Assembly (NCBI GenBank): GCA_965223855.1
Contig: CBDCXM010000008.1
Location: 32,001-96,000 of the forward strand
Origin: Candidatus Multivoradales bacterium
GTDB lineage: Bacteria; Acidobacteriota; Thermoanaerobaculia; Multivoradales; JAHEKO01
DNA: 64,000 nt
Direction of reading: 5' to 3'
Shown here: in pieces, positions 1,764-19,781 of the stretch
How positions within the stretch are numbered: position 1 is the first letter of the stretch
Layout: each line of letters opens with the position of its first letter
Notes under the pieces: model-generated
What the model saw: the letters and a program-made list of their open reading frames with translations, nothing else
The model's database searches: none
What the model was told of the DNA's origin: nothing
Program-made: the position numbers and the translations under genes

Positions 1764-4145
1764 CTACTCGGCGACGAGCTTCCGCGCGGCGGCGACCACG
1801 TCGTCCTCGCCCGGAAGGTAGTCGTGCTCGAGGGGGGGCGCGTAGGGAACCGGTGTGTCGGGCGCCGTGACTCTCCGGATCGGGGCGTCGAGGTCGTAGA
1901 AGAGGTCGTCGGCGATCCTCGCCGCCAGTTCTCCAGCGAAGCCTCCCCTGCGGGTGTCCTCATGAAGCACCAGCATCCTGCTGGTCTTGCGCACCGAGGC
2001 AAACAGAGCCTCTTCGTCCAGCGGCACGAGAGTGCGCAGGTCGAGCACCTCGGCCTCGATGCCCTCCTCCTGCAGCCTGCCGGCAGCCGCGAAAGCGGTC
2101 CAGACCATCGCTCCGTACGTGGCGATCGTCAGATCCTCGCCCGATCGACGCACGGCCGCCTTCCCGAGCGGTACCCGCACTGCGGAGCCGGTCGGTACCT
2201 CCTCGCGAAGATCGGTCCTGAAGAAGCCGTAAAGACCCTTCGCTTCGAGGAAGAGAACCGGCCCTTCGTCGTCGATCGCCGCCAACAGGAGGCCTTTCGC
2301 GTCTGCCGGCGTCGAGGGAGCGACGATCTTCCACCCCGGCGTGCGGACGAACCACATCTCGGGACACTGGCTGTGGAAAGGCCCCCCACCCAGGAGCGGC
2401 GTGTGCGTACCGGTCGCTCCGCCGTAGGGCAGCCGGACGACCATCGGCACCTCTCTCCCCCAGCGCCAGTAGACCTTCGCCGCGTTGTTGACGAGTGCAT
2501 TGAAGGCGGGCGCGAGGAAGTCGGCGAACTGCATCTCCACCACCGGTCGGAACCCCAGGAGCGCCGAGCCGACACCGCAACCGACGATCGCCGACTCCGC
2601 GAGCGGCGTATTGAGGCAACGCTCGGGGCCGAACTCCTTGGCCAGCCCGCGGGTCACACCGAACGCGCCGCCGTAGCGCCCACCGACGTCCTCTCCCAGC
2701 AGATAGACCCGCTCGTTCGCCCGCATCGCCTCTCGGAGCCCGTCCCGAACGGCTTCGTCGTAGGACATGCGCCTGGTCGCCGACCCGGCATCCGGCGCGC
2801 GCTCGGGAGGTGGCGGCGGGTAGACACGGGAACGATACTCGTCCGGATCGGGCCACGGTGCGGAAGCGGCAATCTCCGCAGCGGCCGCTACCTGAGCCTC
2901 ACACTCCTCGGCCATCCGGCGTTGGGCGTCGCGATCGAGCACGCCCGCCTCTGCGAGGCGATCGCCGAACAGGACCACCGGATCGACCGCCTCCCAGGCG
3001 GCAGCTTCCTCCGGGAACTCGTAGCCCGGGATCTTCGCCTCCGGGCTGCCGTGGAACCTGTCGTCGTCATGGTGAGCGTGTCCGGACCGACGGTAGCTGA
3101 CCAGCTCGATCAGAGTCGGTCCATGGCCGGATCTCGCTCTCTCCGCCGCCCAGGTGACGCCCGCGGCGATCTCCTCGGGGTCGTTGCCGAAGAGCGTCAC
3201 TCCGGGAATTCCGTAGCCGGCGGCGCGCAACGAGAAGCGGCGGGCCGCCGACTGCTCGCTGACGTGGGTCCCCAACGCCCACTGGTTGTTCTCGATGACG
3301 AACACCAGATTCAGCTTCTGCACCGCGGCGAAGTTGATCGCCTCGTGCCACTCCCCGAGGCTCGCGCCGCCCTCGCCGATGAAGGTCACTCCCACGCGGT
3401 CCTCGTCGGCAAGCCGGAAGCCGTAGGCGATGCCGAGCATCGTCTGAACCGCGACTGCCAGCGGCGCCGCAGGCGGAAGGACGCCATGATCGAAGTCGCC
3501 GGTATGAAGGTCCCGGCCGCCGACCGGCGTGCCGGTCTTCCCGTACTGCACGAGGATCGGATGCAGCGGATCCGGCAGGAACATGAGCAGCGCGCCCAGG
3601 TCGCGAATCAGCGGTGCAATGACGTCTCCCTGGTAGTCCGCACCCGGTGGATACGCCGGAGGGCGCCGGAGTCGCAGCGCTGCGCCGACGATCGCCTCCT
3701 GGCCGGTGGAACGGAACCCTTTCTGCGGTGACGGGTAGTCTCCCCACGCCACCTCCTTGCGGTCGAACGCCGTCTTGAGATGCCCGTCCACCGCTCGAGT
3801 GAGGAGCATGCCGCGCAGGAGCGCCTCGCGCTCCTCGGGCGCGAGGCTCCGCCGGATCCTCCGTCGCTCGAAGAAGCCACGGACTGCGACCTCGAGCGCA
3901 CCGCGCTCACCGGCAACCGCCTCGCCATGGGTGAGGCCGGGGTAGAGGGACACGTCCGAGTACCTCGGGCCCGTTCTGAAACGATGGTCGATGCGCTCGA
4001 CCAGCGCGGTCTCGAGCTCCTCTTCGCTCGCTGCACGCGGCAGATCGCGGATCAGAAAGGGGGCCTCGAGGCTCAGAAAGCCGTGGAGATCGCGCAACAG
4101 GGTCTCGGAGAGCATCGCTCCACCCGCTGGTGAGGGCTCGTTCAT
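1764..4145 (-). CDS. Fused E1 alpha/beta subunit of a 2-oxoacid (branched-chain/pyruvate-type) dehydrogenase
   Basis: TPP motif 'FIGEGG...IENNQWA', 'YRRSGHAHHDD', and beta-domain 'GEDVG..GGAFG', 'NTPLAESAI', 'EMQFADF'. Start moved to ATG 4145, which follows a TATACT -10 box. Confidence 0.9.
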   Translation of the reverse strand: MNEPSPAGGAMLSETLLRDLHGFLSLEAPFLIRDLPRAASEEELETALVERIDHRFRTGPRYSDVSLYPGLTHGEAVAGERGALEVAVRGFFERRRIRRSLAPEEREALLRGMLLTRAVDGHLKTAFDRKEVAWGDYPSPQKGFRSTGQEAIVGAALRLRRPPAYPPGADYQGDVIAPLIRDLGALLMFLPDPLHPILVQYGKTGTPVGGRDLHTGDFDHGVLPPAAPLAVAVQTMLGIAYGFRLADEDRVGVTFIGEGGASLGEWHEAINFAAVQKLNLVFVIENNQWALGTHVSEQSAARRFSLRAAGYGIPGVTLFGNDPEEIAAGVTWAAERARSGHGPTLIELVSYRRSGHAHHDDDRFHGSPEAKIPGYEFPEEAAAWEAVDPVVLFGDRLAEAGVLDRDAQRRMAEECEAQVAAAAEIAASAPWPDPDEYRSRVYPPPPPERAPDAGSATRRMSYDEAVRDGLREAMRANERVYLLGEDVGGRYGGAFGVTRGLAKEFGPERCLNTPLAESAIVGCGVGSALLGFRPVVEMQFADFLAPAFNALVNNAAKVYWRWGREVPMVVRLPYGGATGTHTPLLGGGPFHSQCPEMWFVRTPGWKIVAPSTPADAKGLLLAAIDDEGPVLFLEAKGLYGFFRTDLREEVPTGSAVRVPLGKAAVRRSGEDLTIATYGAMVWTAFAAAGRLQEEGIEAEVLDLRTLVPLDEEALFASVRKTSRMLVLHEDTRRGGFAGELAARIADDLFYDLDAPIRRVTAPDTPVPYAPPLEHDYLPGEDDVVAAARKLVAE

Positions 4146-4242
4146 CGGCGGGCTAGTATACGGACGGAGTCGGCGATGCCGCCGGGCCGGTCGCGACCCG
4201 GTGATAGCGTCCACGACTCGCCATCCTCCGCCGGTATCCTGC

Positions 4243-7089
4243 GTGAAGTCCTCGACTCAAATCCTGAGCTCGTTTCTGCGCGGCGTTCGTTTCCTCTTCG
4301 ACTCCGCTGCTGCGGCCGTCTTCGTGCCTCCTCCTTCCGACGGCAGCCTCGAGCCGATTCTGGTGCATGACGGCGATCGGGACGCCTTGCACGAGTTCCG
4401 GTCGGTCGAGGCCGCCCAGAGCACGGTGGAGCAGCTGATGGCCGGAGGGCGGGTCGCAGACAGGAGACCCGCGGGCGACTCCGGCGGCGTCTGGATCCTG
4501 CCGATGGTCTCCGCCCCTCCGAAGCCCGCGGATCCACCCACGACCTCTCGACGCGCGGCCGACAACGATCCCGCCAGAAGGCCTCGAGCCTACCTCGCCG
4601 TCCACATCGACTCCGGCTCCGGGCAGGTGGACGATGCCGGGACGTCCGACCCGCGATGGCAGTGGGTGCGGGAGTTCGGAGCCGATCTGGCCGAGCAGGC
4701 GATCAGGGTCCACAGCACCCTGCGCGACCCGGTAACCGGCCTGGCAGACCGCATCGGCTTCCAGGCACTGCTCTCGGACCAGGTGGAGAGGGCGACGCAG
4801 GCAGGCACCTGGCTCTCTCTGGTCCTCATCAACCCTCACAACTTCGGTCAGGTCAACGAGCGCTTCGGCAGGTTCTCGGGAGACAAGGTGCTGCGCGAGG
4901 TCGCAGAGCTGATCTGCGACACGCTGCGGGAATCGGATCCGGTGTCTCGCTACGGCGGTGCGATCTTCGGCGCGCTGCTCCCTGCCACCCCTCCCGAGGA
5001 CGCCACGACCGTGGCGCACAAGCTCGTCCATACCGTGCGCGACAGCACGTTCCTGGACGGTGATGTCCGTCTCGAGCTGTGCTGCGGCGTCGCGTCCCTC
5101 GACCCGGGCGACCAGCCCCTCGGAGACCCTCTCGACCTCCTCAGGAGGGCCGACCTCGCTCTCAACCGGGCGCGGCGCGAGGGGGAGGGTGCGGTGGACG
5201 TGTGGGGGAAGGCTGGAGGTGAGGCAGAGGAGGGTCGCGTCGAGTCGGGGAGGATCAGCGAGCTCTTCAGCGGTGATCTTGCTCGCGACTACCGGAACAT
5301 GGCGCTGCTGCGGGACGCGGTCGACCTCGTCGCCGACACCCACGACCTCGAGACCCTGGCCGGAGCCGTCGTCGAACGGCTCTACTCCGCCTGCAAGGCC
5401 GAGCGGGTCGGGCTGTTCCGTCGCGCCGACGGTCAGCCTCAGCTGGTGCGCGGAATCGCTCGCCCCTCGACTCCGGTCGGAGCGCGACGGGAGACGTTCG
5501 AGCTCGAGCCCGCACCCGCCGCTCTCCTCGCCTCCGCCATGGAGCAGGCTTCCGTCCAGAGCCGGCCCGTGGAGATCGGAGACGGGCGGACTCACCTCGC
5601 CTTCGCAGTGCCGATCGTGGCCGGCGGCGAGGCGATCGGCGGCTTTTACATCGACGGAGCCGTCGAGTCGATCGACGTCGATGCAACCGACCTGATCTTC
5701 TTCAAAGCACTCTCTTCCCAGCTCTCGATCGCCCTCGAGCGAGCGCAACTCGAATCGAGCCGCAGCTCGAGCAGACTCGAGGAGGAGCTCCTCGAGCTGC
5801 GCACCGCAGTTCAAGAGAGCCAGCTGGTCCACACGTCAGAGTCGATGGCCCAGCTCCTGGACGCGGTCGATCGGGTCGGGCCGACCGAAGCTACGATCCT
5901 CATCACCGGCGAGAGCGGCACGGGCAAGGAGATGATCGCTCGCCGGCTTCACGAGTCGAGCGCACGCCGTCGCCGCGGCCTGACGGTCGTCGATTGCGCC
6001 GCCATCGCGCCGACTCTGATCGACAGCGAGCTGTTCGGCCACGACCAGGGTGCCTACACGGGCGCCCAGAGGCGCCGTTCCGGCAGGCTCGCCGAGGCCG
6101 ACGGCGGGACCGTCCTGCTCGACGAGGTCGGCGAGCTTCCGGTCGAGGTCCAGAGCCGCCTGTTGCGGTTCGTGCAGGAGAAGCAGATCACCCTGGTCGG
6201 CGAATCCCGGCCGCGCAAGATCGACGTCAGAATCCTCGCTGCGACGAATCGCGATCTCGAAGAGGAAGCGCGCGCCGGTCGGTTCCGGGAGGATCTCTAC
6301 CACCGTCTGAACGTCGTGAGGCTGGACGTGCCGCCTCTGCGCGACCGCCCGGACGACGTCGTCTTCCTCGCCGAGCACTTTCTCTCCCAGTTCTGCGATC
6401 AATACGGCAAGGTGGGCGCCCACCTCACCGCGGACGCCAGGGAGGCTCTCGTGCGCTACGACTGGCCCGGCAACGTCCGGGAGCTGCAGAACCGGATGCT
6501 GCAGGCGGTGATCCTGCTCGAAGGTCGCGCGCTGGCGGCAGCCAGTCTCGGGCTTCCTTCGGAACCGGCGCCACGAGTCGTCCAACGTTCTCGACCGGAG
6601 AAGGCTCCGAGAGCCGGCGCGACCGTCGAAGAGGCGCTCGACGAGTTGAGGCTCATCCTGCGCGGTCAGATCGAGGCGATCGTCGATCGCAGCCGGGCGG
6701 TCCATCTCCCGCTCGGGAAGTGGCTGGCGGAGGACCTTCTCGCCGAGGCCGACCTGGCCGAGGGAGGCACCGCCAGAAGGGCCGCGCAGCGTATCGGGCT
6801 GGCTGAGACGACCTACCGGCGTCGCCTTGCCCAGGCACAGGCCCGCGAACGCGCCGGGCTCGCTCCGAGGCCCGACGGGTGGCTGGACGTTCGCGAGGCG
6901 TTGACCCGACTCCTGCACGCCTCCGATCGCGACGGAAAGCCGCTGCTGAAGCTGGCCGAGGCGGCACTGCTCGACGAGATCGTCTCGCAGCTCGAGGGGG
7001 ACGAGGTCACGGGAGCCGCGCTCCTGGGAGTCACTCTACCGACGTACCGACGGCGCATCGAGAGTTGGCTGGACAGCGCCGGCACCTGA
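4243..7089 (+). CDS. Sigma-54 enhancer-binding protein with degenerate GGDEF, GAF, AAA+ and two C-terminal HTH-like segments
   Basis: 'GESGTGKE', 'ELFGHDQGAYTGA', 'LLDEVGE', 'FREDLYHRLNV' and 'WPGNVRELQN'. GGDEF-like 'RDPVTGL...LRESDPVSRYGGAIF'. Start uncertain (GTG 4201 or 4243); the 3991 start overlaps the opposite-strand E1 gene. Confidence 0.9.
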   Translation: MKSSTQILSSFLRGVRFLFDSAAAAVFVPPPSDGSLEPILVHDGDRDALHEFRSVEAAQSTVEQLMAGGRVADRRPAGDSGGVWILPMVSAPPKPADPPTTSRRAADNDPARRPRAYLAVHIDSGSGQVDDAGTSDPRWQWVREFGADLAEQAIRVHSTLRDPVTGLADRIGFQALLSDQVERATQAGTWLSLVLINPHNFGQVNERFGRFSGDKVLREVAELICDTLRESDPVSRYGGAIFGALLPATPPEDATTVAHKLVHTVRDSTFLDGDVRLELCCGVASLDPGDQPLGDPLDLLRRADLALNRARREGEGAVDVWGKAGGEAEEGRVESGRISELFSGDLARDYRNMALLRDAVDLVADTHDLETLAGAVVERLYSACKAERVGLFRRADGQPQLVRGIARPSTPVGARRETFELEPAPAALLASAMEQASVQSRPVEIGDGRTHLAFAVPIVAGGEAIGGFYIDGAVESIDVDATDLIFFKALSSQLSIALERAQLESSRSSSRLEEELLELRTAVQESQLVHTSESMAQLLDAVDRVGPTEATILITGESGTGKEMIARRLHESSARRRRGLTVVDCAAIAPTLIDSELFGHDQGAYTGAQRRRSGRLAEADGGTVLLDEVGELPVEVQSRLLRFVQEKQITLVGESRPRKIDVRILAATNRDLEEEARAGRFREDLYHRLNVVRLDVPPLRDRPDDVVFLAEHFLSQFCDQYGKVGAHLTADAREALVRYDWPGNVRELQNRMLQAVILLEGRALAAASLGLPSEPAPRVVQRSRPEKAPRAGATVEEALDELRLILRGQIEAIVDRSRAVHLPLGKWLAEDLLAEADLAEGGTARRAAQRIGLAETTYRRRLAQAQARERAGLAPRPDGWLDVREALTRLLHASDRDGKPLLKLAEAALLDEIVSQLEGDEVTGAALLGVTLPTYRRRIESWLDSAGT

Positions 7090-7205
7090 CAGACCGGACC
7101 TGACAGACCGGGCAGCGCAGAGCCCTCTCCCTCGAGGGGATACCGTCCCACCTCCACCCGCCGGCCACTCGGGTCCGAGGGCTCGGAGGGAGCGTGTTCC
7201 GACCC

Positions 7206-7225
7206 GCCTCGCCGCCCGGCGAGGC
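7206..7225. terminator. GC-rich hairpin between the convergent sigma-54 activator and peptide genes
   Basis: GCCTCGCCG-CC-CGGCGAGGC inverted repeat. No clear U-tract. Confidence 0.4.
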
Positions 7226-7286
7226 AGGGACTGAAGGGTGACTTCATCTCATCCGGCGCAGTCCTGTTGTCTCAGGGCCGGGACAG

Positions 7287-7457
7287 CTAGCCGCGGGAAG
7301 GGTCGACCAGAGGGGCCGGCGGCTCGTCGTCGCCGGTATCACCCTTCTCGTCGATGTAGTCCGAGGGACGGGCGAGGAATCCCTGATCGGCGCCCGTATC
7401 GGTCGCGGGGAGAACGGGGAGGACGGTCAGCATGAGGGCGAGAATCAGTCGAAGCAT
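7287..7457 (-). CDS. Small secreted acidic peptide, copy 1 (56 aa): MLRLILALMLTVLPVLPATDTGADQGFLARPSDYIDEKGDTGDDEPPAPLVDPSRG
   Basis: Manual translation. AAGGA RBS upstream of ATG, Sec-like hydrophobic N-terminus, paralogous to two neighbours. Below the ORF-track length cut-off. Confidence 0.88.
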   Translation of the reverse strand: MLRLILALMLTVLPVLPATDTGADQGFLARPSDYIDEKGDTGDDEPPAPLVDPSRG

Positions 7458-7539
7458 GGGTAGGGTCCTTTTTCAGAGGTTGAGCGCCTCCGGCGTGGGA
7501 AGGAGGCTCGTTCCAGCGGTGTCCTGACGGGAAGCTGGG

Positions 7540-7710
7540 CTACCAGGAACGGTCGTCGCGCAGCGGCGCAGGCGGCTCGTCGTCGCCCGTGTCGCCCTTC
7601 TCGTCGATGTAGTCCGAAGGCCGGGCCAGGAAGCCCTGGTCGACATCGGTATCGGTCGCGGGGAGGACGGGGAGGATGGTCAGCATGAGGCCGAGAATCA
7701 GTCGAAGCAT
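7540..7710 (-). CDS. Small secreted acidic peptide, copy 2 (56 aa): MLRLILGLMLTILPVLPATDTDVDQGFLARPSDYIDEKGDTGDDEPPAPLRDDRSW
   Basis: Manual translation. AAAGGA RBS. 47/56 aa identical to copy 1, with only synonymous changes in the 25-aa core. Confidence 0.88.
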   Translation of the reverse strand: MLRLILGLMLTILPVLPATDTDVDQGFLARPSDYIDEKGDTGDDEPPAPLRDDRSW

Positions 7711-7767
7711 GTGGATGTTCCTTTGTCGTGAGCAGGTTCGTTAGGGAAGGTCGCGATGCAGCTCTCG

Positions 7768-7941
7768 CTACCAGGACCGGTCGTCGCGCAGCGGCGCGGG
7801 CGGCTCGTCGTCGCCGGTATCACCCTTTTCGTCGATGTAGTCCGAAGGACGGGCGAGGAAGCCCTCGTCGGCTCCGTCGGTCGTCTGTGCCGGCAGCACC
7901 GGCAGCACGGTGAGAATCAATGCGATCATCCATCGGAACAT
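7768..7941 (-). CDS. Small secreted acidic peptide, copy 3 (57 aa): MFRWMIALILTVLPVLPAQTTDGADEGFLARPSDYIDEKGDTGDDEPPAPLRDDRSW
   Basis: Manual translation. GAGGAG RBS and the same invariant core. Confidence 0.88.
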   Translation of the reverse strand: MFRWMIALILTVLPVLPAQTTDGADEGFLARPSDYIDEKGDTGDDEPPAPLRDDRSW

Positions 7942-8191
7942 GGCGTTCTCCTCTTCTGGTCGTTCCGTTGCGTTGAAGTCGAAGCGACCTCATGATCGCT
8001 CCGACGGGTAGACACTTCTTGACACCCGGTCTTCGACGTTCGAGCGGCGTAGGGACCGCGCCGGGTCAACGATCGGCGGCCGAGACGGCGAAAAAACGGA
8101 GCAGCGGAAGCTCCGCAAGTGCGCATGCGGGGATGCGGGTCTTGCGACCCTCTCACTACAACCACCTGGTGTCCCTCAGCCATCGTTCGGT

Positions 8192-8220
8192 TTCGAGCCC
8201 CCCCGGGCCCGACGTATTAT
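8192..8220 (+). promoter_or_regulatory. Possible sigma-70 promoter for the sensor diguanylate cyclase
   Basis: TTCGAG-N17-TATTAT in a locally AT-rich patch about 70 nt before ATG 8293. Confidence 0.3.
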
Positions 8221-8292
8221 GTATCAGCTTTTAGCGCACACCCTCCGTCGCCGCAAGGGAGTCCGGCACAACGTCCGACTGGTGGAAGCCCG

Positions 8293-17559: not shown

Positions 17560-18771
17560 TCAGCCTTCGAAGACGATCTGCCAGCGACCGTCCTCGAACA
17601 GCCAGTACTGGCGCTTCTTCTTCGACCCGCGAAAGTTGTCGCTCTCGTAGCGCTGCAGGAAATCCACGACGACCATCGCGTCTTCGCCCGGATAGCCGAA
17701 GATCGAGAGATCCTCGAGAGCGACCCTGATGTAGCGCTTCGACGGGTTGACCCTTCTCTTGTGAGCTGCGAAAGCGGCGCGATTCATGTCGCTCGTCCGG
17801 AAACTCGAGGCGTAGTGCCCGAGGTAGGAGTCGGCGTCGCGGCTCTCCCAGTCGAGCCTCCACTGCTCGATCGCCTCGCCCACCGACTCGCGGACCGAGC
17901 GCATCGAGTCGGGCGACACCCAACGAACGCCGCGGGTGAGGACGACCGGAGTCGAACCGACATCCACCTGCTCCCTCAGCGTGGCGAAATCTTCGTTGCT
18001 GAGGGTGACGCACCCGCGGCTCGACAGGGGCGGGCGGCTGTACCGTTCGGACTCGGTACCGTGAATCCAGATCCCACTGCCGGTGCGTCCCTGCAGACGA
18101 TCCCATTCGTTGGGATAGTCGATCGGGAACGCCCCGAGGCCGTAGAGATCCGGCAGCGTCTCGCCCGGCAGATAGGAGGAGACGCGGTAGAGACCGGTCG
18201 GCGTCTTCTCGTCCCCCTCGTAGCGCTTGTCCGTGCCCCCCTTGCCGATCGAGACGTAGAAGTCGAGCACCCTCTCCGGCCGGTCACCGACCAGGGAGAA
18301 GAGGTACAGCCGGTAGGCTTCGGTATCGACGAGAATCACGTTGCGAGTCTTCTCGGGGAGCTGCAACAGCTCGGCAGGGACGGCCTCGGACGGCGGCCCT
18401 TCGAGATACCGGGCCAGACGCGCCTGAGCCTCCTCCCGAAGTCCCGAGACGCTTTCCACGCCGGCGGCTTCTCCACCGAACGCGGCCAGCGGCTCTCGCA
18501 TCGCCTGCAGAAGGTCTCCTCGCACCAGCTGCGCGAGTTCGAAGTCCGGACGACGCTCGAGAATCCGCGAGGTGTGATCCAGAGCGTCCTCGAGACGACC
18601 GGCCTGGATGTCCAGGAGCGTCCAGATGAGGCGTTCCTCGATCGACGAGGTCGCCTGCCCCGAAGCCCCGATCTGGTGCCCGGCTTCGTCGAGTGCCTCG
18701 ACGCTTCCCGAGCCCAGAGCACAGAGCGAGGCCGCCAGAACAGCGATCCCGAGGTGCCGGCGTCGGCTCAC
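17560..18771 (-). CDS. L,D-transpeptidase (YkuD) with C-terminal NTF2-like domain
   Basis: 'EGDEKTPTGLY', 'GIWIHG...SSRGCVTL'. GTG start overlaps the upstream stop; signal peptide follows. Confidence 0.88.
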   Translation of the reverse strand: MSRRRHLGIAVLAASLCALGSGSVEALDEAGHQIGASGQATSSIEERLIWTLLDIQAGRLEDALDHTSRILERRPDFELAQLVRGDLLQAMREPLAAFGGEAAGVESVSGLREEAQARLARYLEGPPSEAVPAELLQLPEKTRNVILVDTEAYRLYLFSLVGDRPERVLDFYVSIGKGGTDKRYEGDEKTPTGLYRVSSYLPGETLPDLYGLGAFPIDYPNEWDRLQGRTGSGIWIHGTESERYSRPPLSSRGCVTLSNEDFATLREQVDVGSTPVVLTRGVRWVSPDSMRSVRESVGEAIEQWRLDWESRDADSYLGHYASSFRTSDMNRAAFAAHKRRVNPSKRYIRVALEDLSIFGYPGEDAMVVVDFLQRYESDNFRGSKKKRQYWLFEDGRWQIVFEG

Positions 18772-19781
18772 GACTCGGTCGACTCCTCTGCATCGATGCG
18801 CCAGGAATCTCCGGATCGGACGAGATCGAGCACCTTGACGACCGTGTCCTGAAAGCTGTCCGAGCGGTAGCGCTGCAGGAATCTCACCTGCACTCGACCG
18901 GAGCCGGCGGGACGTACCGCGATCGACTCGACGGCGACTTCGATGAACCTCGGCCCTTCGATCCTCTGCCTTCTTTGCCGTTCCCACTCCGCCCGACTGC
19001 GATCGGCCGGGGAGAAGTCCGGCGAGTAGTAGCCGAGATAGGCATTCACGTCCTGATCGGACCATGCCTGTGCCCAGGCGCGGACGAACCCCGCCACGGC
19101 CGCCGCATCGAACTGCGCCCTCGGCTCGTCGGCGGCGGGGCCGGAGGCATCACCTTGCCCGCCGGTGGGAGTCGGGTCTCCGAGCGGCTCGGCCGGAGCG
19201 ACCCGCTCGGTGAGAGGAGCCTTGACGGCAACTCTTCCCGACGAGGGAGCCGCCGTCTGCGGGACGGCTTCGCCCCCGTCGCTCCCGGACTCGAGGCCGC
19301 CGAGCAGCCGAAGATCCGGGCCGGCCGTCCCATCGCTCGACTCCTGACCGAGCGCGCGGTCGTAGGCACGACTCGCGAGCTTCCCGTAGACCTTCGTGAG
19401 GTTGTCGTAGGCGGTGCCGTAGCTCGAATGAGTGGCGAGCGCCAGCTTGAGGATCTCGACGGCACGCTCGTACTCGCCCCGCTCGGCGTAGAGGACAGCA
19501 AGGTTGTTGAACGGCTCCGGGTAGTCAGGATGGCTGCGCGTCAGTTCGAGGAAGATCTCCTCAGCCTCGGCCTCCCGGCCCGATCGAGCGAGCACGACCC
19601 CCTTGACGAACTGCGCTTCGGCGGAACCGTTGCCCTCGATCTCCGCATCCAACAGGCTGAGAGCCTCCGGTAGCCGGCCCTCCGACGCTGCTCTCGTTGC
19701 TCGCTCGATCGCCCCCTCCTGCGCCGCCAGTCCGCCGGCGAGCAGAGCGGCCGCAACCGCCGCGCACACCCGTCTCGTCAT
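18768..19781 (-). CDS. Secreted TPR protein with C-terminal NTF2-like domain
   Basis: 'PEPFNNLAVLYAERGEYERA' TPR, C-terminal 'WAQAWSDQDVNAYLGYYS...FLQRYRS'. Confidence 0.8.
   Translation of the reverse strand: MTRRVCAAVAAALLAGGLAAQEGAIERATRAASEGRLPEALSLLDAEIEGNGSAEAQFVKGVVLARSGREAEAEEIFLELTRSHPDYPEPFNNLAVLYAERGEYERAVEILKLALATHSSYGTAYDNLTKVYGKLASRAYDRALGQESSDGTAGPDLRLLGGLESGSDGGEAVPQTAAPSSGRVAVKAPLTERVAPAEPLGDPTPTGGQGDASGPAADEPRAQFDAAAVAGFVRAWAQAWSDQDVNAYLGYYSPDFSPADRSRAEWERQRRQRIEGPRFIEVAVESIAVRPAGSGRVQVRFLQRYRSDSFQDTVVKVLDLVRSGDSWRIDAEESTES

What the first reader, a model, noticed from the sequence alone, without database searches (positions are those of the whole stretch)
7287..7941. Hidden tandem array of three secreted acidic micropeptides with an invariant 25-aa core
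Seen in sequence: three minus-strand ORFs of 56, 56 and 57 aa, absent from the ORF track. Each has its own RBS and a Sec-like N-terminus ending in the invariant LPVLPA. All share the identical core GFLARPSDYIDEKGDTGDDEPPAPL. Copies 1 and 2 differ at 10 core codons, all synonymous, while the 82-nt and 57-nt spacers are unrelated, which indicates selection on the peptide rather than on a DNA repeat. Variation is confined to the signal, a short linker and the C-terminal tail (VDPSRG vs RDDRSW). Inference: an exported signalling peptide, RiPP precursor or metal-binding peptide kept at triple dosage. I do not recognise the family.
Basis: partly seen in the sequence, partly recalled or inferred. Interest (0 to 1): 0.92.

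Follow-up and report, generated by a model that had tools for sequence, protein, structure and literature searches.

The report
Tandem exported micropeptide genes, unnamed family
Three neighbouring genes for small, acidic, probably exported peptides are real and under strong selection; they belong to an unnamed family known only from a few uncultured Acidobacteriota, always next to the same signalling genes, and their function is untested.

Summary
Three minus-strand ORFs (7941..7768, 7710..7540, 7457..7287; 57, 56 and 56 aa) share an identical 25-aa core. All 23 pairwise core differences are synonymous third-position changes.

They are real genes of an unnamed family. There is no Pfam, NCBIfam or PDB match. 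A profile search of 1.84 billion representatives found 17 further ~60-aa peptides. All five genomes of the genus carry 1-3 copies. Divergent members sit in the same slot in two more genera.

Members share an N-terminus that reads as a signal peptide and an acidic mature part. 25 of 29 have a two-Cys loop; the window's copies lack it.

The array lies between a sigma-54 activator with a degenerate GGDEF domain and a periplasmic propeller/Y_Y_Y diguanylate cyclase. Other genera have this gene pair with no such ORF found between them.

My best guess, at about 0.35, is an exported species-specific ligand or modulator of that cyclase. Binding is untested, and the complex prediction gave no verdict.

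The RiPP reading is weakened: a radical-SAM cluster 6-9 kb away has its own conserved precursor. No RNA data were available.

The parts
7768..7941 (-). Copy A, 57 aa: MFRWMIALILTVLPVLPA | QTTDGADE + 25-aa core + RDDRSW. The RBS GGAG lies 8 nt before the ATG.
7540..7710 (-). Copy B, 56 aa. It has the same core and the same tail RDDRSW as copy A. Its 5' (signal) part is nearly identical at DNA level to copy C.
7287..7457 (-). Copy C, 56 aa. It has the same core and the tail VDPSRG. Metagenome contigs show one synonymous variant in the core (7311) and one non-synonymous variant in the tail (7294); the codon reading is mine.
8228..8259 (-). Conserved promoter-like element CCCTTGCGG-N17-TAAAAG (TTGCnn-N17/18-TAnAnA), about 280 nt upstream of the ATG of copy A. 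It is conserved upstream of the arrays of G002, G003 and G004. In G003 no cyclase match lies on the contig that carries the array. Its role as a promoter is inferred.
8096..8116 (-). Terminator-like hairpin plus T-run inside the presumed 5' leader of the array. It was not seen in the relatives' aligned leaders, and its role is unknown.
7203..7228 (-). GC-rich hairpin (about 11 bp stem, loop GGGC, no T-run) between the end of copy C and the convergent activator gene. Coordinates are approximate and read by eye.
   Evidence: read from sequence; not reported by the scan
3991..7089 (+). Convergent neighbour: GGDEF-GAF-sigma54 AAA+ activator. The GGDEF motif is degenerate (RYGGAIF) with RESD at the spacing I recall for a c-di-GMP I-site. 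The true start is probably near ORF residue 80-90.
8293..11640 (+). Divergent neighbour: a signal/TM segment, a periplasmic Reg_prop propeller region of about 750 aa with a Y_Y_Y domain, a TM segment, and a GGDEF domain with intact GGDEF. The start is at 8293 (ATG) or 8359 (TTG).
11640..13391 (+). Receiver-GGDEF-EAL protein following the cyclase. It was seen beside the cyclase in the seven peptide-bearing genomes, on another contig in G001 and G003.

Best explanation
The three ORFs are real genes for pre-peptides of 56-57 aa.

Export (inferred). A short Sec-type signal peptide (residues 1 to about 18) is probably removed by signal peptidase I. This would release an intrinsically disordered, strongly acidic peptide of about 38 aa into the periplasm or medium.

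Family (shown). They belong to an unnamed, fast-evolving family confined, as far as searched, to three genera of one family of Thermoanaerobaculia (Acidobacteriota) plus uncultured relatives.

Locus (shown, with one inference). The family occupies one fixed slot, on the opposite strand between the two genes of a c-di-GMP signalling pair. One gene is a sigma-54 activator with a degenerate GGDEF domain that I read as a c-di-GMP receptor. The other is a membrane diguanylate cyclase with a large periplasmic beta-propeller/Y_Y_Y sensor. I infer that the pair is older than the peptide genes.

Proposed mechanism (inferred, not shown). The exported peptide acts on the periplasmic sensor domain of the neighbouring cyclase as a self-made, species-specific ligand or modulator. 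It would thereby set c-di-GMP output, which the activator reads.

Pattern of constraint. The conserved block from the S(R/H)D motif through the acidic/Cys loop to PPxP(F/L) would be the active part. The hypervariable tail after it would be dispensable or specificity-tuning.

The confidence of 0.35 is for this mechanism. That these are selected genes for a new family of exported-looking peptides I hold at about 0.9.
For: Coding and selection.
- In the 25-codon core the three copies differ only synonymously: 10, 7 and 6 changes against 0 non-synonymous.
- In all seven paralogue pairs from four genomes and one metagenome contig, the mature part up to PPxP(F/L) has pN 0.03-0.12 against pS 0.13-0.72. 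In the five pairs whose tails differ in protein, tail pN is 0.34-0.85.

Family.
- A profile search of 1.84e9 representatives gave 21 hits at E<=1e-3. One is the window's own protein, 17 are peptides of 59-69 aa with the same N-terminus, and 3 are long repetitive proteins.
- All five genomes of genus g1 carry 1-3 copies.
- Divergent members lie in the same slot in G012 and G016.

Export signal.
- 29 of 29 aligned members have R or K at position 3, an uncharged run of 13-22 residues and a (-3,-1) site at residues 17-20.
- 29 of 29 have a net negative mature part, and 25 of 29 have exactly two Cys.
- The AF2 model has a confident helix at residues 2-15 and little order elsewhere.

Linkage.
- The activator lies convergent next to the array in 10 of 10 loci with DNA on that side: G000-G004, G012, G016, L044, L046 and L048.
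- The cyclase lies divergent upstream in 7 loci: G000, G002, G004, G012, G016, L044 and L045.

The pair also occurs without the peptide.
- Activator and cyclase are directly adjacent in 7 of 20 fetched loci of other genera. In six of these, no small ORF with a hydrophobic N-terminus was found in the gap.

Circuit.
- The cyclase has an intact GGDEF motif and about 750 periplasmic residues.
- The activator has GGAIF with RESD at the spacing I recall for a c-di-GMP I-site (read from sequence).
- Among the genes of the locus that I examined, the cyclase is the only one with a large extracytoplasmic domain.
- It is also the most diverged neighbour compared within the genus: 52-55% identity against 82-87% for the receiver-GGDEF-EAL protein and 61-77% for the activator.
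Against: - No binding, expression or secretion data exist. No RNA run was listed.
- In G003 the peptide pair stays with the activator, while the cyclase block lies on another contig. Adjacency to the cyclase is therefore not obligatory.
- Reg_prop/Y_Y_Y sensors that have been studied bind glycans, not peptides. This is recalled; the listing only shows the glycan-sensing context.
- Periplasmic domains often evolve fast anyway, so the cyclase's divergence is weak evidence.
- Signal-peptide cleavage rests on rules of thumb, not on a predictor or an experiment.
- Gene neighbourhood alone is a weak predictor of physical interaction.
Confidence: 0.35

Rival explanations
1. The exported acidic peptide has a function of its own, unrelated to its neighbours. 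Examples are buffering or binding of Ca2+ or other cations in the periplasm, or acting as a small component of the cell envelope or biofilm matrix.
For: All 29 members are net negative in the mature part, from -1 to -8. The window copies are the most acidic, at -7 to -8, with runs such as DYIDEKGDTGDDE. The peptide is disordered in the model. Copy number of 1-3 fits a dosage-type product.
Against: No match to any metal-binding or other family was found. The charge varies widely between members. The very tight and lineage-wide placement between the two signalling genes is not explained. Species-specific cores under strong constraint suggest a specific partner rather than bulk chemistry.
Confidence: 0.2
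2. The peptides are the output of the circuit rather than its input. They would be a secreted product whose transcription is controlled by c-di-GMP through the neighbouring sigma-54 activator.
For: The activator is the most constant neighbour, in 10 of 10 loci. It stays with the peptides in G003 when the cyclase does not.
Against: No -24/-12 (GG-N10-GC) element with 9 or more of 12 consensus matches lies at a conserved position upstream of the arrays in G000, G002, G003 and G004; G001 has no upstream DNA. The conserved upstream element looks sigma-70-like, TTGCnn-N17-TAnAnA. The genes are convergent, not divergent, with the activator.
Confidence: 0.1
3. The N-terminus is an uncleaved membrane anchor. 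The protein would be a small membrane protein that modulates a membrane sensor from within the membrane, working like MgrB on PhoQ, with its Cys pair in the periplasm.
For: The N-terminal segment is more conserved than the rest. Five of 29 members give weak hits (best E 0.03) to NapE, which I recall as a single-pass membrane protein. 25 of 29 have a periplasmic Cys pair. MgrB is a 47-aa membrane protein that inhibits PhoQ (abstract starts in the listing: PMC8404706, PMC10576120).
Against: The strongly hydrophobic stretch is only about 15 residues, with a Pro at position 14. It is followed by small residues in a (-3,-1) pattern, which is typical of cleaved signal peptides and short for a stable transmembrane helix (rule of thumb).
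Confidence: 0.12
4. They are RiPP precursors modified by the nearby radical SAM/SPASM enzyme before export.
For: A cluster lies 6-9 kb away in the window. It holds an S24/S26-like protein, an HprK-like protein, a PqqD-like protein and a radical SAM/SPASM enzyme. It is found beside the cyclase block in the seven peptide-bearing genomes, running to a contig end in G001 and G002. Most family members carry two Cys. RiPP precursors with Sec signal peptides have a precedent in the bufferins (abstract starts in the listing: PMC11626156).
Against: That cluster has its own 54-aa precursor-like gene next to the radical SAM gene (15338..15174). Its conserved part, LSRERLEALAVVC plus a Cys-containing core, was seen in 7 of 7 genomes examined and is unrelated to these peptides. 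The cluster also occurs in G009 and G017, where no peptide of this family was found. The window's three copies have no Cys at all yet are under strong constraint.
Confidence: 0.07
5. They are secreted antimicrobial, bacteriocin-like peptides whose fast divergence reflects an arms race.
For: The peptides are small, exported, mostly disulfide-looped, tandemly duplicated and fast evolving.
Against: They are acidic rather than cationic or amphipathic. There is no double-glycine leader (read). No immunity-like, ABC-exporter or C39 peptidase gene was seen among the ORFs I scanned between 212 and 21719; not every ORF in that stretch was scanned. The fixed position inside a signalling locus is unexplained.
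Confidence: 0.08
6. They are chance ORFs in a DNA repeat and not genes.
For: The genome is about 68% G+C, where long spurious ORFs are common.
Against: Differences in the core are synonymous only. RBS motifs are present. The spacers are unrelated. Homologues with the same frame occur in ten further loci and 17 metagenome clusters.
Confidence: 0.01

Closest known systems
YfiR-YfiN (DgcN) of Pseudomonas aeruginosa: a periplasmic protein that represses a membrane diguanylate cyclase
   Same: A self-encoded periplasmic polypeptide, encoded beside the cyclase gene, controls a membrane GGDEF enzyme from the periplasm (abstract starts in the listing: PMC4887326, PMC4655355). The window's cyclase gives a sub-threshold NCBIfam hit to DgcN/YfiN through its GGDEF part.
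   Different: YfiR is a folded protein several times larger (size recalled) with no sequence relation to these peptides. YfiN senses through a different periplasmic domain (recalled), not propellers. Here the peptide is about 38 aa, disordered and hypervariable. Regulation is only hypothesised.
MgrB-PhoQ: a small protein that inhibits a sensor kinase
   Same: A protein of similar size (47 aa), with an N-terminal hydrophobic segment and a periplasmic Cys pair, acts on a membrane sensor (abstract starts in the listing: PMC8404706, PMC10576120).
   Different: MgrB stays in the membrane, whereas these peptides look cleavable. There is no sequence similarity. The target class here would be a diguanylate cyclase.
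Phr pro-peptides of Bacillus (Rap-Phr) and other Sec-exported peptide pheromones
   Same: Short pre-pro-peptides with a Sec signal, fast species-specific divergence, and a gene beside that of the signalling protein they act on (recalled knowledge; no paper was read).
   Different: Phr peptides are re-imported and bind cytoplasmic TPR receptors. Here no RRNPP-type receptor or Opp genes were seen among the ORFs scanned. The candidate receptor is periplasmic and the organism is diderm.
Bufferins and other RiPP precursors with Sec signal peptides
   Same: Small Cys-containing precursors that carry a Sec signal peptide (abstract starts in the listing: PMC11626156, PMC12452194).
   Different: Bufferin genes sit with MNIO (DUF692) enzymes. 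No such gene was seen among the scanned neighbours. The nearby radical SAM cluster has its own precursor.

Membership tests
Sec/signal-peptidase-I signal peptides | A positively charged n-region, a hydrophobic h-region of about 10-15 residues, and small residues at -3 and -1 of the c-region | tested here: met
   29 of 29 aligned members have R or K at position 3, an uncharged run of 13-22 residues and a (-3,-1) site at residues 17-20. A helix at residues 2-15 is modelled. This is a rule-of-thumb test, since no SignalP was available.
Sec/signal-peptidase-I signal peptides | Actual cleavage and export | not testable with these tools
   It needs expression with mass spectrometry or N-terminal sequencing.
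RiPP precursor of the neighbouring radical SAM/SPASM cluster | Leader shared with the cluster's recognised precursor, and co-occurrence with the maturase | tested here: not met
   The cluster's own precursor (15338..15174) has a conserved LSRERLEALAVVC part that is absent from these peptides. The cluster also occurs in G009 and G017, where no peptide of this family was found.
RiPP precursor of the neighbouring radical SAM/SPASM cluster | Conserved modifiable residues (Cys) in the core | tested here: inconclusive
   25 of 29 members have two Cys. The window's three copies and P0022 have none.
Class II bacteriocins with a double-glycine leader | A non-hydrophobic leader ending in GG or GA, with a C39-peptidase ABC exporter and an immunity gene nearby | tested here: not met
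   The N-terminus is hydrophobic and no GG leader is present. No such genes were seen among the ORFs scanned between 212 and 21719; not every ORF there was scanned.
Phr/RRNPP-type peptide pheromones | An adjacent cytoplasmic TPR (RRNPP) receptor gene and re-import through Opp | tested here: not met
   The neighbours are a GGDEF-GAF-sigma54 activator and a Reg_prop/Y_Y_Y-GGDEF protein. No RRNPP-type receptor was seen. The TPR protein at 18768..19781 carries a Cds6_C domain and lies 11 kb away.
MgrB-like small membrane regulators | A stable single transmembrane helix that keeps the protein in the membrane | tested here: inconclusive
   The hydrophobic stretch is about 15 residues with Pro14. Weak NapE hits occur in 5 of 29 members, best E 0.03. 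This is short for a transmembrane helix, but the topology was not measured.
Any described protein family (Pfam, NCBIfam, PDB) | A significant profile match | tested here: not met
   There were 0 families at E<=10 for the three window proteins in Pfam and NCBIfam. Over all 29 members only sub-threshold hits appeared. There were 0 PDB chains at E<=10. Public names, where present, are 'hypothetical protein'.

The most novel reading that the evidence does not exclude
The peptides are a species-specific, self-produced extracellular signal that is read directly by the periplasmic beta-propeller/Y_Y_Y domain of the neighbouring diguanylate cyclase. This would be a peptide-pheromone-to-c-di-GMP circuit in Acidobacteriota, a phylum for which I know of no peptide quorum signal (recalled). 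It would use a sensor fold so far tied to glycan sensing (recalled). Peptide and sensor would co-evolve, which would explain cores that are frozen within a genome but about 70% different between species.
Probability: 0.15. Interest if true: 0.85.

Novelty: new variant of a known kind. Interest (0 to 1): 0.5.

Why it matters
Small exported peptides are among the least annotated gene products in uncultured bacteria. Here an entire family, known only as 'hypothetical protein', shows clear purifying selection and a fixed place inside a c-di-GMP signalling locus.

If the peptides prove to be ligands or modulators of the neighbouring periplasmic sensor cyclase, three things would follow. A signal would be identified for a large class of orphan propeller/Y_Y_Y sensors. 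It would be an example of peptide-based control of c-di-GMP. It would also give a handle on cell-cell or self-signalling in Acidobacteriota, an abundant phylum.

If they are only acidic periplasmic peptides, the finding is a modest new family.

Tried and rejected
Searches and predictions that gave nothing usable:
- Rfam scan of 6900-8700 at E<=10: only two chance-level hits, so no known riboswitch or sRNA in the leader.
- Sigma-70 consensus scan of the same stretch: 0 promoter-like sites, 1 terminator-like site.
- Sigma-54 -24/-12 scan of five loci: nothing at a conserved position.
- ESM Atlas look-up of P0007: best feature score 0.77, below the 0.9 that counts as more than a lead. The Atlas model is disordered, with pLDDT 0.32.
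- Single-sequence searches are nearly blind to this family. One search found only the window's own three proteins. One search found only the G002 pair at E about 4e-4, among many chance hits at E 0.05-1.
- The profiles also missed the G012 and G016 members, which were found only by position. 'Not found' in other genera is therefore weak.
- Class-level sample: 401 genomes, and 5 of 401 at E<=0.01. These are G000 plus four marginal partial matches starting at profile position 19-23. I did not follow them up.
- Complex prediction of the cyclase periplasmic domain (750 aa, alignment A7) with the mature peptide (residues 19-56, alignment A6): no verdict, score 0.06 against a mark of 0.32. It is neither evidence for nor against binding.
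- The look-up of sequencing runs: no RNA holder listed. There were four DNA-type holders from one study, which may be the source. Expression is therefore untested.
- Literature: five keyword searches. I saw only the listings and the first lines of abstracts and read no paper. None concerns this family. Keyword searches cannot find a sequence family, so 'not in print' rests only on these searches and on the absence of names. No supplements were asked for.

Readings considered and dropped:
- A link to the SipW-like hit of the ORF at 13397..13879. That protein has Cys where I recall the catalytic Ser of S24/S26 peptidases (GACMEP), I saw no hydrophobic segment in it, and it belongs to the RiPP cluster.
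- A tree of the 29 peptides, to decide between independent duplications and concerted evolution. It was not built because the sequences are too short and diverged. That question stays open.

Unpublished genome: G005 was among the genomes searched and gave only one chance-level hit (E 0.52).
Full report
**1. The observation**

The stretch 7287-7941 holds three minus-strand ORFs:
- copy A, 7941..7768, 57 aa;
- copy B, 7710..7540, 56 aa;
- copy C, 7457..7287, 56 aa.

Each begins with M-(F/L)-R, a hydrophobic run and LPVLPA. Each then has a short variable linker, the identical 25-aa core GFLARPSDYIDEKGDTGDDEPPAPL, and a six-residue tail (RDDRSW in A and B, VDPSRG in C). A GGAG or AAGGA lies 6-10 nt before each ATG. 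The spacers of 82 and 57 nt do not align with each other.

Within the 75 core bases, B and C differ at 10 positions, A and B at 7, and A and C at 6. All 23 differences are third codon positions and all are synonymous. Only about a quarter of the core sites are synonymous. Ten of ten by chance is therefore of the order of 1e-6 (my arithmetic).

The own genome (4.52 Mb, 9 contigs, 92% complete) has no further copy. Short-read contigs of four runs from one study, possibly the source, carry the array. One spans the whole stretch and one spans 7216-8086 without a difference.

**2. It is a gene family, not a private repeat**

Known libraries gave nothing:
- Pfam and NCBIfam gave no match at E<=10 for the three proteins.
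- The PDB sequence search with the family profile gave none.
- Scanning all 29 collected members against Pfam gave only sub-threshold hits. The commonest was NapE in 5 of 29, best E 0.03.

A single-sequence search of 5.8 billion proteins returned only the window's own three. A search of 61 related genomes gave one credible extra, two tandem hits in G002 of the same genus at E about 4e-4. That locus is syntenic and holds two tandem ORFs with the same N-terminus and a different mature part containing two Cys.

Profile searches then reached further:
- A profile of the five sequences found members in all five genomes of genus g1. In the other 19 genera of the family it gave only one marginal hit (E 0.009) inside a long frame in G017. 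In total 6 of 45 genomes matched at E<=0.01.
- A profile of ten sequences was run against 1.84 billion cluster representatives. It gave 21 proteins at E<=1e-3, of which 8 were at E<=1e-10.
- Of the 21, one is the window's own and 17 are peptides of 59-69 aa with the family N-terminus. Three are long repetitive proteins matched only in the mature part. I read 19 of the 21.
- Wider genome samples added nothing credible: 5 of 300 genomes and 1 of 89 genera in the order, and 5 of 401 in a class-level sample, four of them marginal partial matches.

These profile searches are not sensitive enough for this family. When I looked by position instead, I found divergent members in two further genera. These are G012 (genus g9, L100:5174-5326:+) and G016 (genus g13, L125:4678-4818:-).

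Titles of two relatives' records name them as Acidobacteriota and Thermoanaerobaculia MAGs. Where public sources name these proteins, they are 'hypothetical protein'.

**3. Anatomy of the family (alignment A6, 29 members)**

Invariant positions are M1, P14 and one Asp in the mature part. R3 is nearly invariant.

- The N-terminus reads M-(F/I/L)-(R/K)-L-I-x-x-I-x-x-I-x-M-P-I-(I/V)-S-V-(S/A)-T-G.
- All 29 members have a basic residue at position 3, an uncharged run of 13-22 residues and a (-3,-1) small-residue site at residues 17-20.
- The hydrophobic stretch of about 15 residues, with a Pro near its end, is typical of a cleaved Sec signal and short for a membrane anchor. This is inference from general rules; no signal-peptide predictor was available.
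- The mature part has a variable linker and then a hydrophobic-x-(S/T)-(R/H)-D-(I/L)-x-(D/E) motif.
- In 25 of 29 members a G-C-x(3-9)-C loop follows.
- Next come a Pro-rich PPxP(F/L) motif and a variable tail.
- All 29 mature parts are net negative, from -1 to -8.

The window's three copies are atypical. They and one metagenome member have no Cys, and the loop is replaced by DTGDDE. An AlphaFold2 model of copy B with this alignment has mean pLDDT 66.7, a confident helix at 2-15, a short helix at 34-38 and no fold otherwise.

**4. Selection**

All seven paralogue pairs, from four genomes and one metagenome contig, show the same pattern:
- From the signal end to PPxP(F/L), pN is 0.03-0.12 against pS 0.13-0.72.
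- In the tail, pN is 0.34-0.85 in the five pairs whose tails differ in protein. That is at or above pS in four of the five. Copies A and B share an identical tail.

The paralogues are therefore old enough to be half-saturated at silent sites, yet identical or nearly so in the mature core. Between species the core is only about 20-36% identical.

The copies in the window are mosaics:
- B and C are almost identical at DNA level in the signal part (pS 0.06) but not in the core (pS 0.58).
- A and B share the tail.
This suggests recombination among copies.

Whether the duplications are independent in each species, or older and homogenised, is not settled. Two population variants were seen in contigs. 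By my codon reading, one is synonymous in the core of copy C (7311) and one is non-synonymous in its tail (7294).

**5. Context**

The array lies between two plus-strand genes.

Downstream and convergent is a GGDEF-GAF-sigma54 activator (3991..7089). Its GGDEF motif reads RYGGAIF, preceded by RESD at the spacing I recall for an I-site (read). I read it as a degenerate, c-di-GMP-binding domain. This is inference.

Upstream and divergent is a protein (start 8293 or 8359, end 11640) with this layout:
- a signal/TM segment;
- about 750 periplasmic residues of Reg_prop propeller repeats and a Y_Y_Y domain;
- a TM segment;
- an intact GGDEF domain.
A receiver-GGDEF-EAL protein follows it (11640..13391).

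Linkage across loci:
- The activator is the neighbour in 10 of 10 peptide-bearing loci with DNA on that side: G000-G004, G012, G016, L044, L046 and L048.
- The cyclase is the upstream neighbour in seven loci: G000, G002, G004, G012, G016, L044 and L045.
- In three loci the contig ends there (G001, L046, L048).
- In G003 the cyclase block lies on another contig.

Orthologues of the activator occur in most genera of the family: 39 of 45 genomes at E<=1e-20. Of 20 loci fetched from other genera:
- 7 have the activator directly followed by the cyclase, with a gap of 224-606 nt;
- 6 of those 7 show no small ORF with a hydrophobic N-terminus in the gap;
- the seventh is G012.

I therefore infer that the activator-cyclase pair is ancestral and that the peptide genes are a later insertion between its two genes, in one sub-lineage.

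**6. Regulation**

No sigma-54 -24/-12 element stands at a conserved place upstream of the arrays. A conserved element, TTGCnn-N17/18-TAnAnA preceded by TGTG, lies about 280 nt upstream of the first ATG (window 8259..8228, minus strand). It is also conserved in G002, G003 and G004. Because no cyclase match lies on the G003 contig that carries the array, I assign the element to the peptide unit. In the window the presumed leader also holds a terminator-like hairpin at 8116..8096. That hairpin was not seen in the relatives' leaders. Rfam finds nothing there. All of this is sequence reading and no transcript data were available.

**7. The RiPP option**

- a small S24/S26-like protein (13397..13879) with GACMEP, that is Cys where I recall the catalytic Ser;
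- an HprK-related P-loop protein (13810..14790), with weak ScmC and HprK-rel-A hits;
- a PqqD-family protein (14787..15065; Pfam E 4e-14);
- on the other strand, a radical SAM/SPASM enzyme (17001..15397, true start probably near ORF residue 171);
- directly after it, a 54-aa ORF (15338..15174) ending ...YRKPRTLSRERLEALAVVCDTGKTDPLSCTVGPIQS.

That small ORF is conserved in 7 of 7 genomes examined: G000, G003, G004, G009, G012, G016 and G017. It has the look of the cluster's precursor. Its conserved part has nothing in common with the peptides of the finding. The cluster also occurs in G009 and G017, where no peptide of the finding's family was found. I therefore rate the RiPP reading of the three peptides low.

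**8. What it most likely is**

Shown: these are selected protein-coding genes of a new, narrow family at a fixed locus.

Inferred with good support: they are exported through Sec and probably cleaved.

Hypothesis:
- The released acidic peptide acts on the periplasmic sensor of the neighbouring cyclase.
- It thereby acts on a c-di-GMP circuit read by the neighbouring activator.
- It is species-specific because peptide and sensor change together.

The support is contextual only. Among the locus genes I examined, the cyclase is the only one with a large extracytoplasmic domain. It is also the most diverged neighbour compared: 52-55% identity within the genus, against 82-87% for the receiver-GGDEF-EAL protein and 61-77% for the activator. 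A complex prediction gave no verdict (listed under Tried and rejected). I put this mechanism at 0.35.

The rivals, with my odds, are:
- an acidic cation-binding or envelope peptide (0.2);
- a membrane-anchored small regulator (0.12);
- an output of the activator (0.1);
- a bacteriocin-like peptide (0.08);
- a RiPP precursor (0.07).

**9. Comparison with known systems**

In working principle the closest are three systems. One is YfiR acting on the cyclase YfiN from the periplasm. Another is MgrB acting on PhoQ. The third is Sec-exported Phr-type pheromones. For the first two I saw only listings and abstract beginnings. The third is recalled. Membership in any of these families is excluded by sequence and by the missing defining partners.

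**10. Verdict**

The finding is real and the family is new, but the function is unproven. The interest lies in the chance of a peptide input to a c-di-GMP sensor in Acidobacteriota.

Noticed in passing
window 13397-17001: An unmentioned RiPP-type cluster. It holds an S24/S26-like protein with Cys where I recall the catalytic Ser (13397..13879 +), an HprK-related P-loop protein (13810..14790 +) and a PqqD-family protein (14787..15065 +). It also holds a 54-aa precursor-like ORF (15338..15174 -) and a radical SAM/SPASM enzyme (17001..15397 -). The precursor-like ORF (...LSRERLEALAVVC...C...) matches no NCBIfam or Pfam model. It is conserved in 7 of 7 genomes examined.
   Followed up: partly
window 3991-7089 (+): The sigma-54 activator carries a degenerate GGDEF motif (RYGGAIF) preceded by RESD at the spacing I recall for an I-site. 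It may therefore be a c-di-GMP-sensing enhancer-binding protein. The neighbouring cyclase has an intact GGDEF. This was read from sequence only.
   Followed up: partly
window 8228-8259 (-); also L035, L032 and L033 upstream of the arrays: A conserved element, TGTG...CCTTGCnn-N17/18-TAnAnA, lies about 280 nt upstream of the first peptide gene in four genomes. It is followed by a poorly conserved long leader.
   Followed up: partly
window 8096-8116 (-): A terminator-like hairpin with a T-run lies upstream of copy A, inside the presumed leader. It could be an attenuator, but it was not seen in relatives.
   Followed up: no
window 7287-7941 (-): The three copies are mosaics. B and C are near-identical at DNA level in the signal part (pS 0.06) but not in the core (pS 0.58), and A and B share the tail. 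This suggests recombination or gene conversion among copies.
   Followed up: partly
L129 (G007:C279): In G007 the activator gene is followed directly by the S24/S26-like and HprK-like genes, without cyclase or peptide. The activator may therefore be linked to the RiPP-type cluster as well.
   Followed up: no
window 7294 and 7311: Two single-base variants occur between metagenome contigs of one study. By my codon reading, 7311 A>G is synonymous in the core of copy C, and 7294 C>T is non-synonymous (R to H) in its tail.
   Followed up: no
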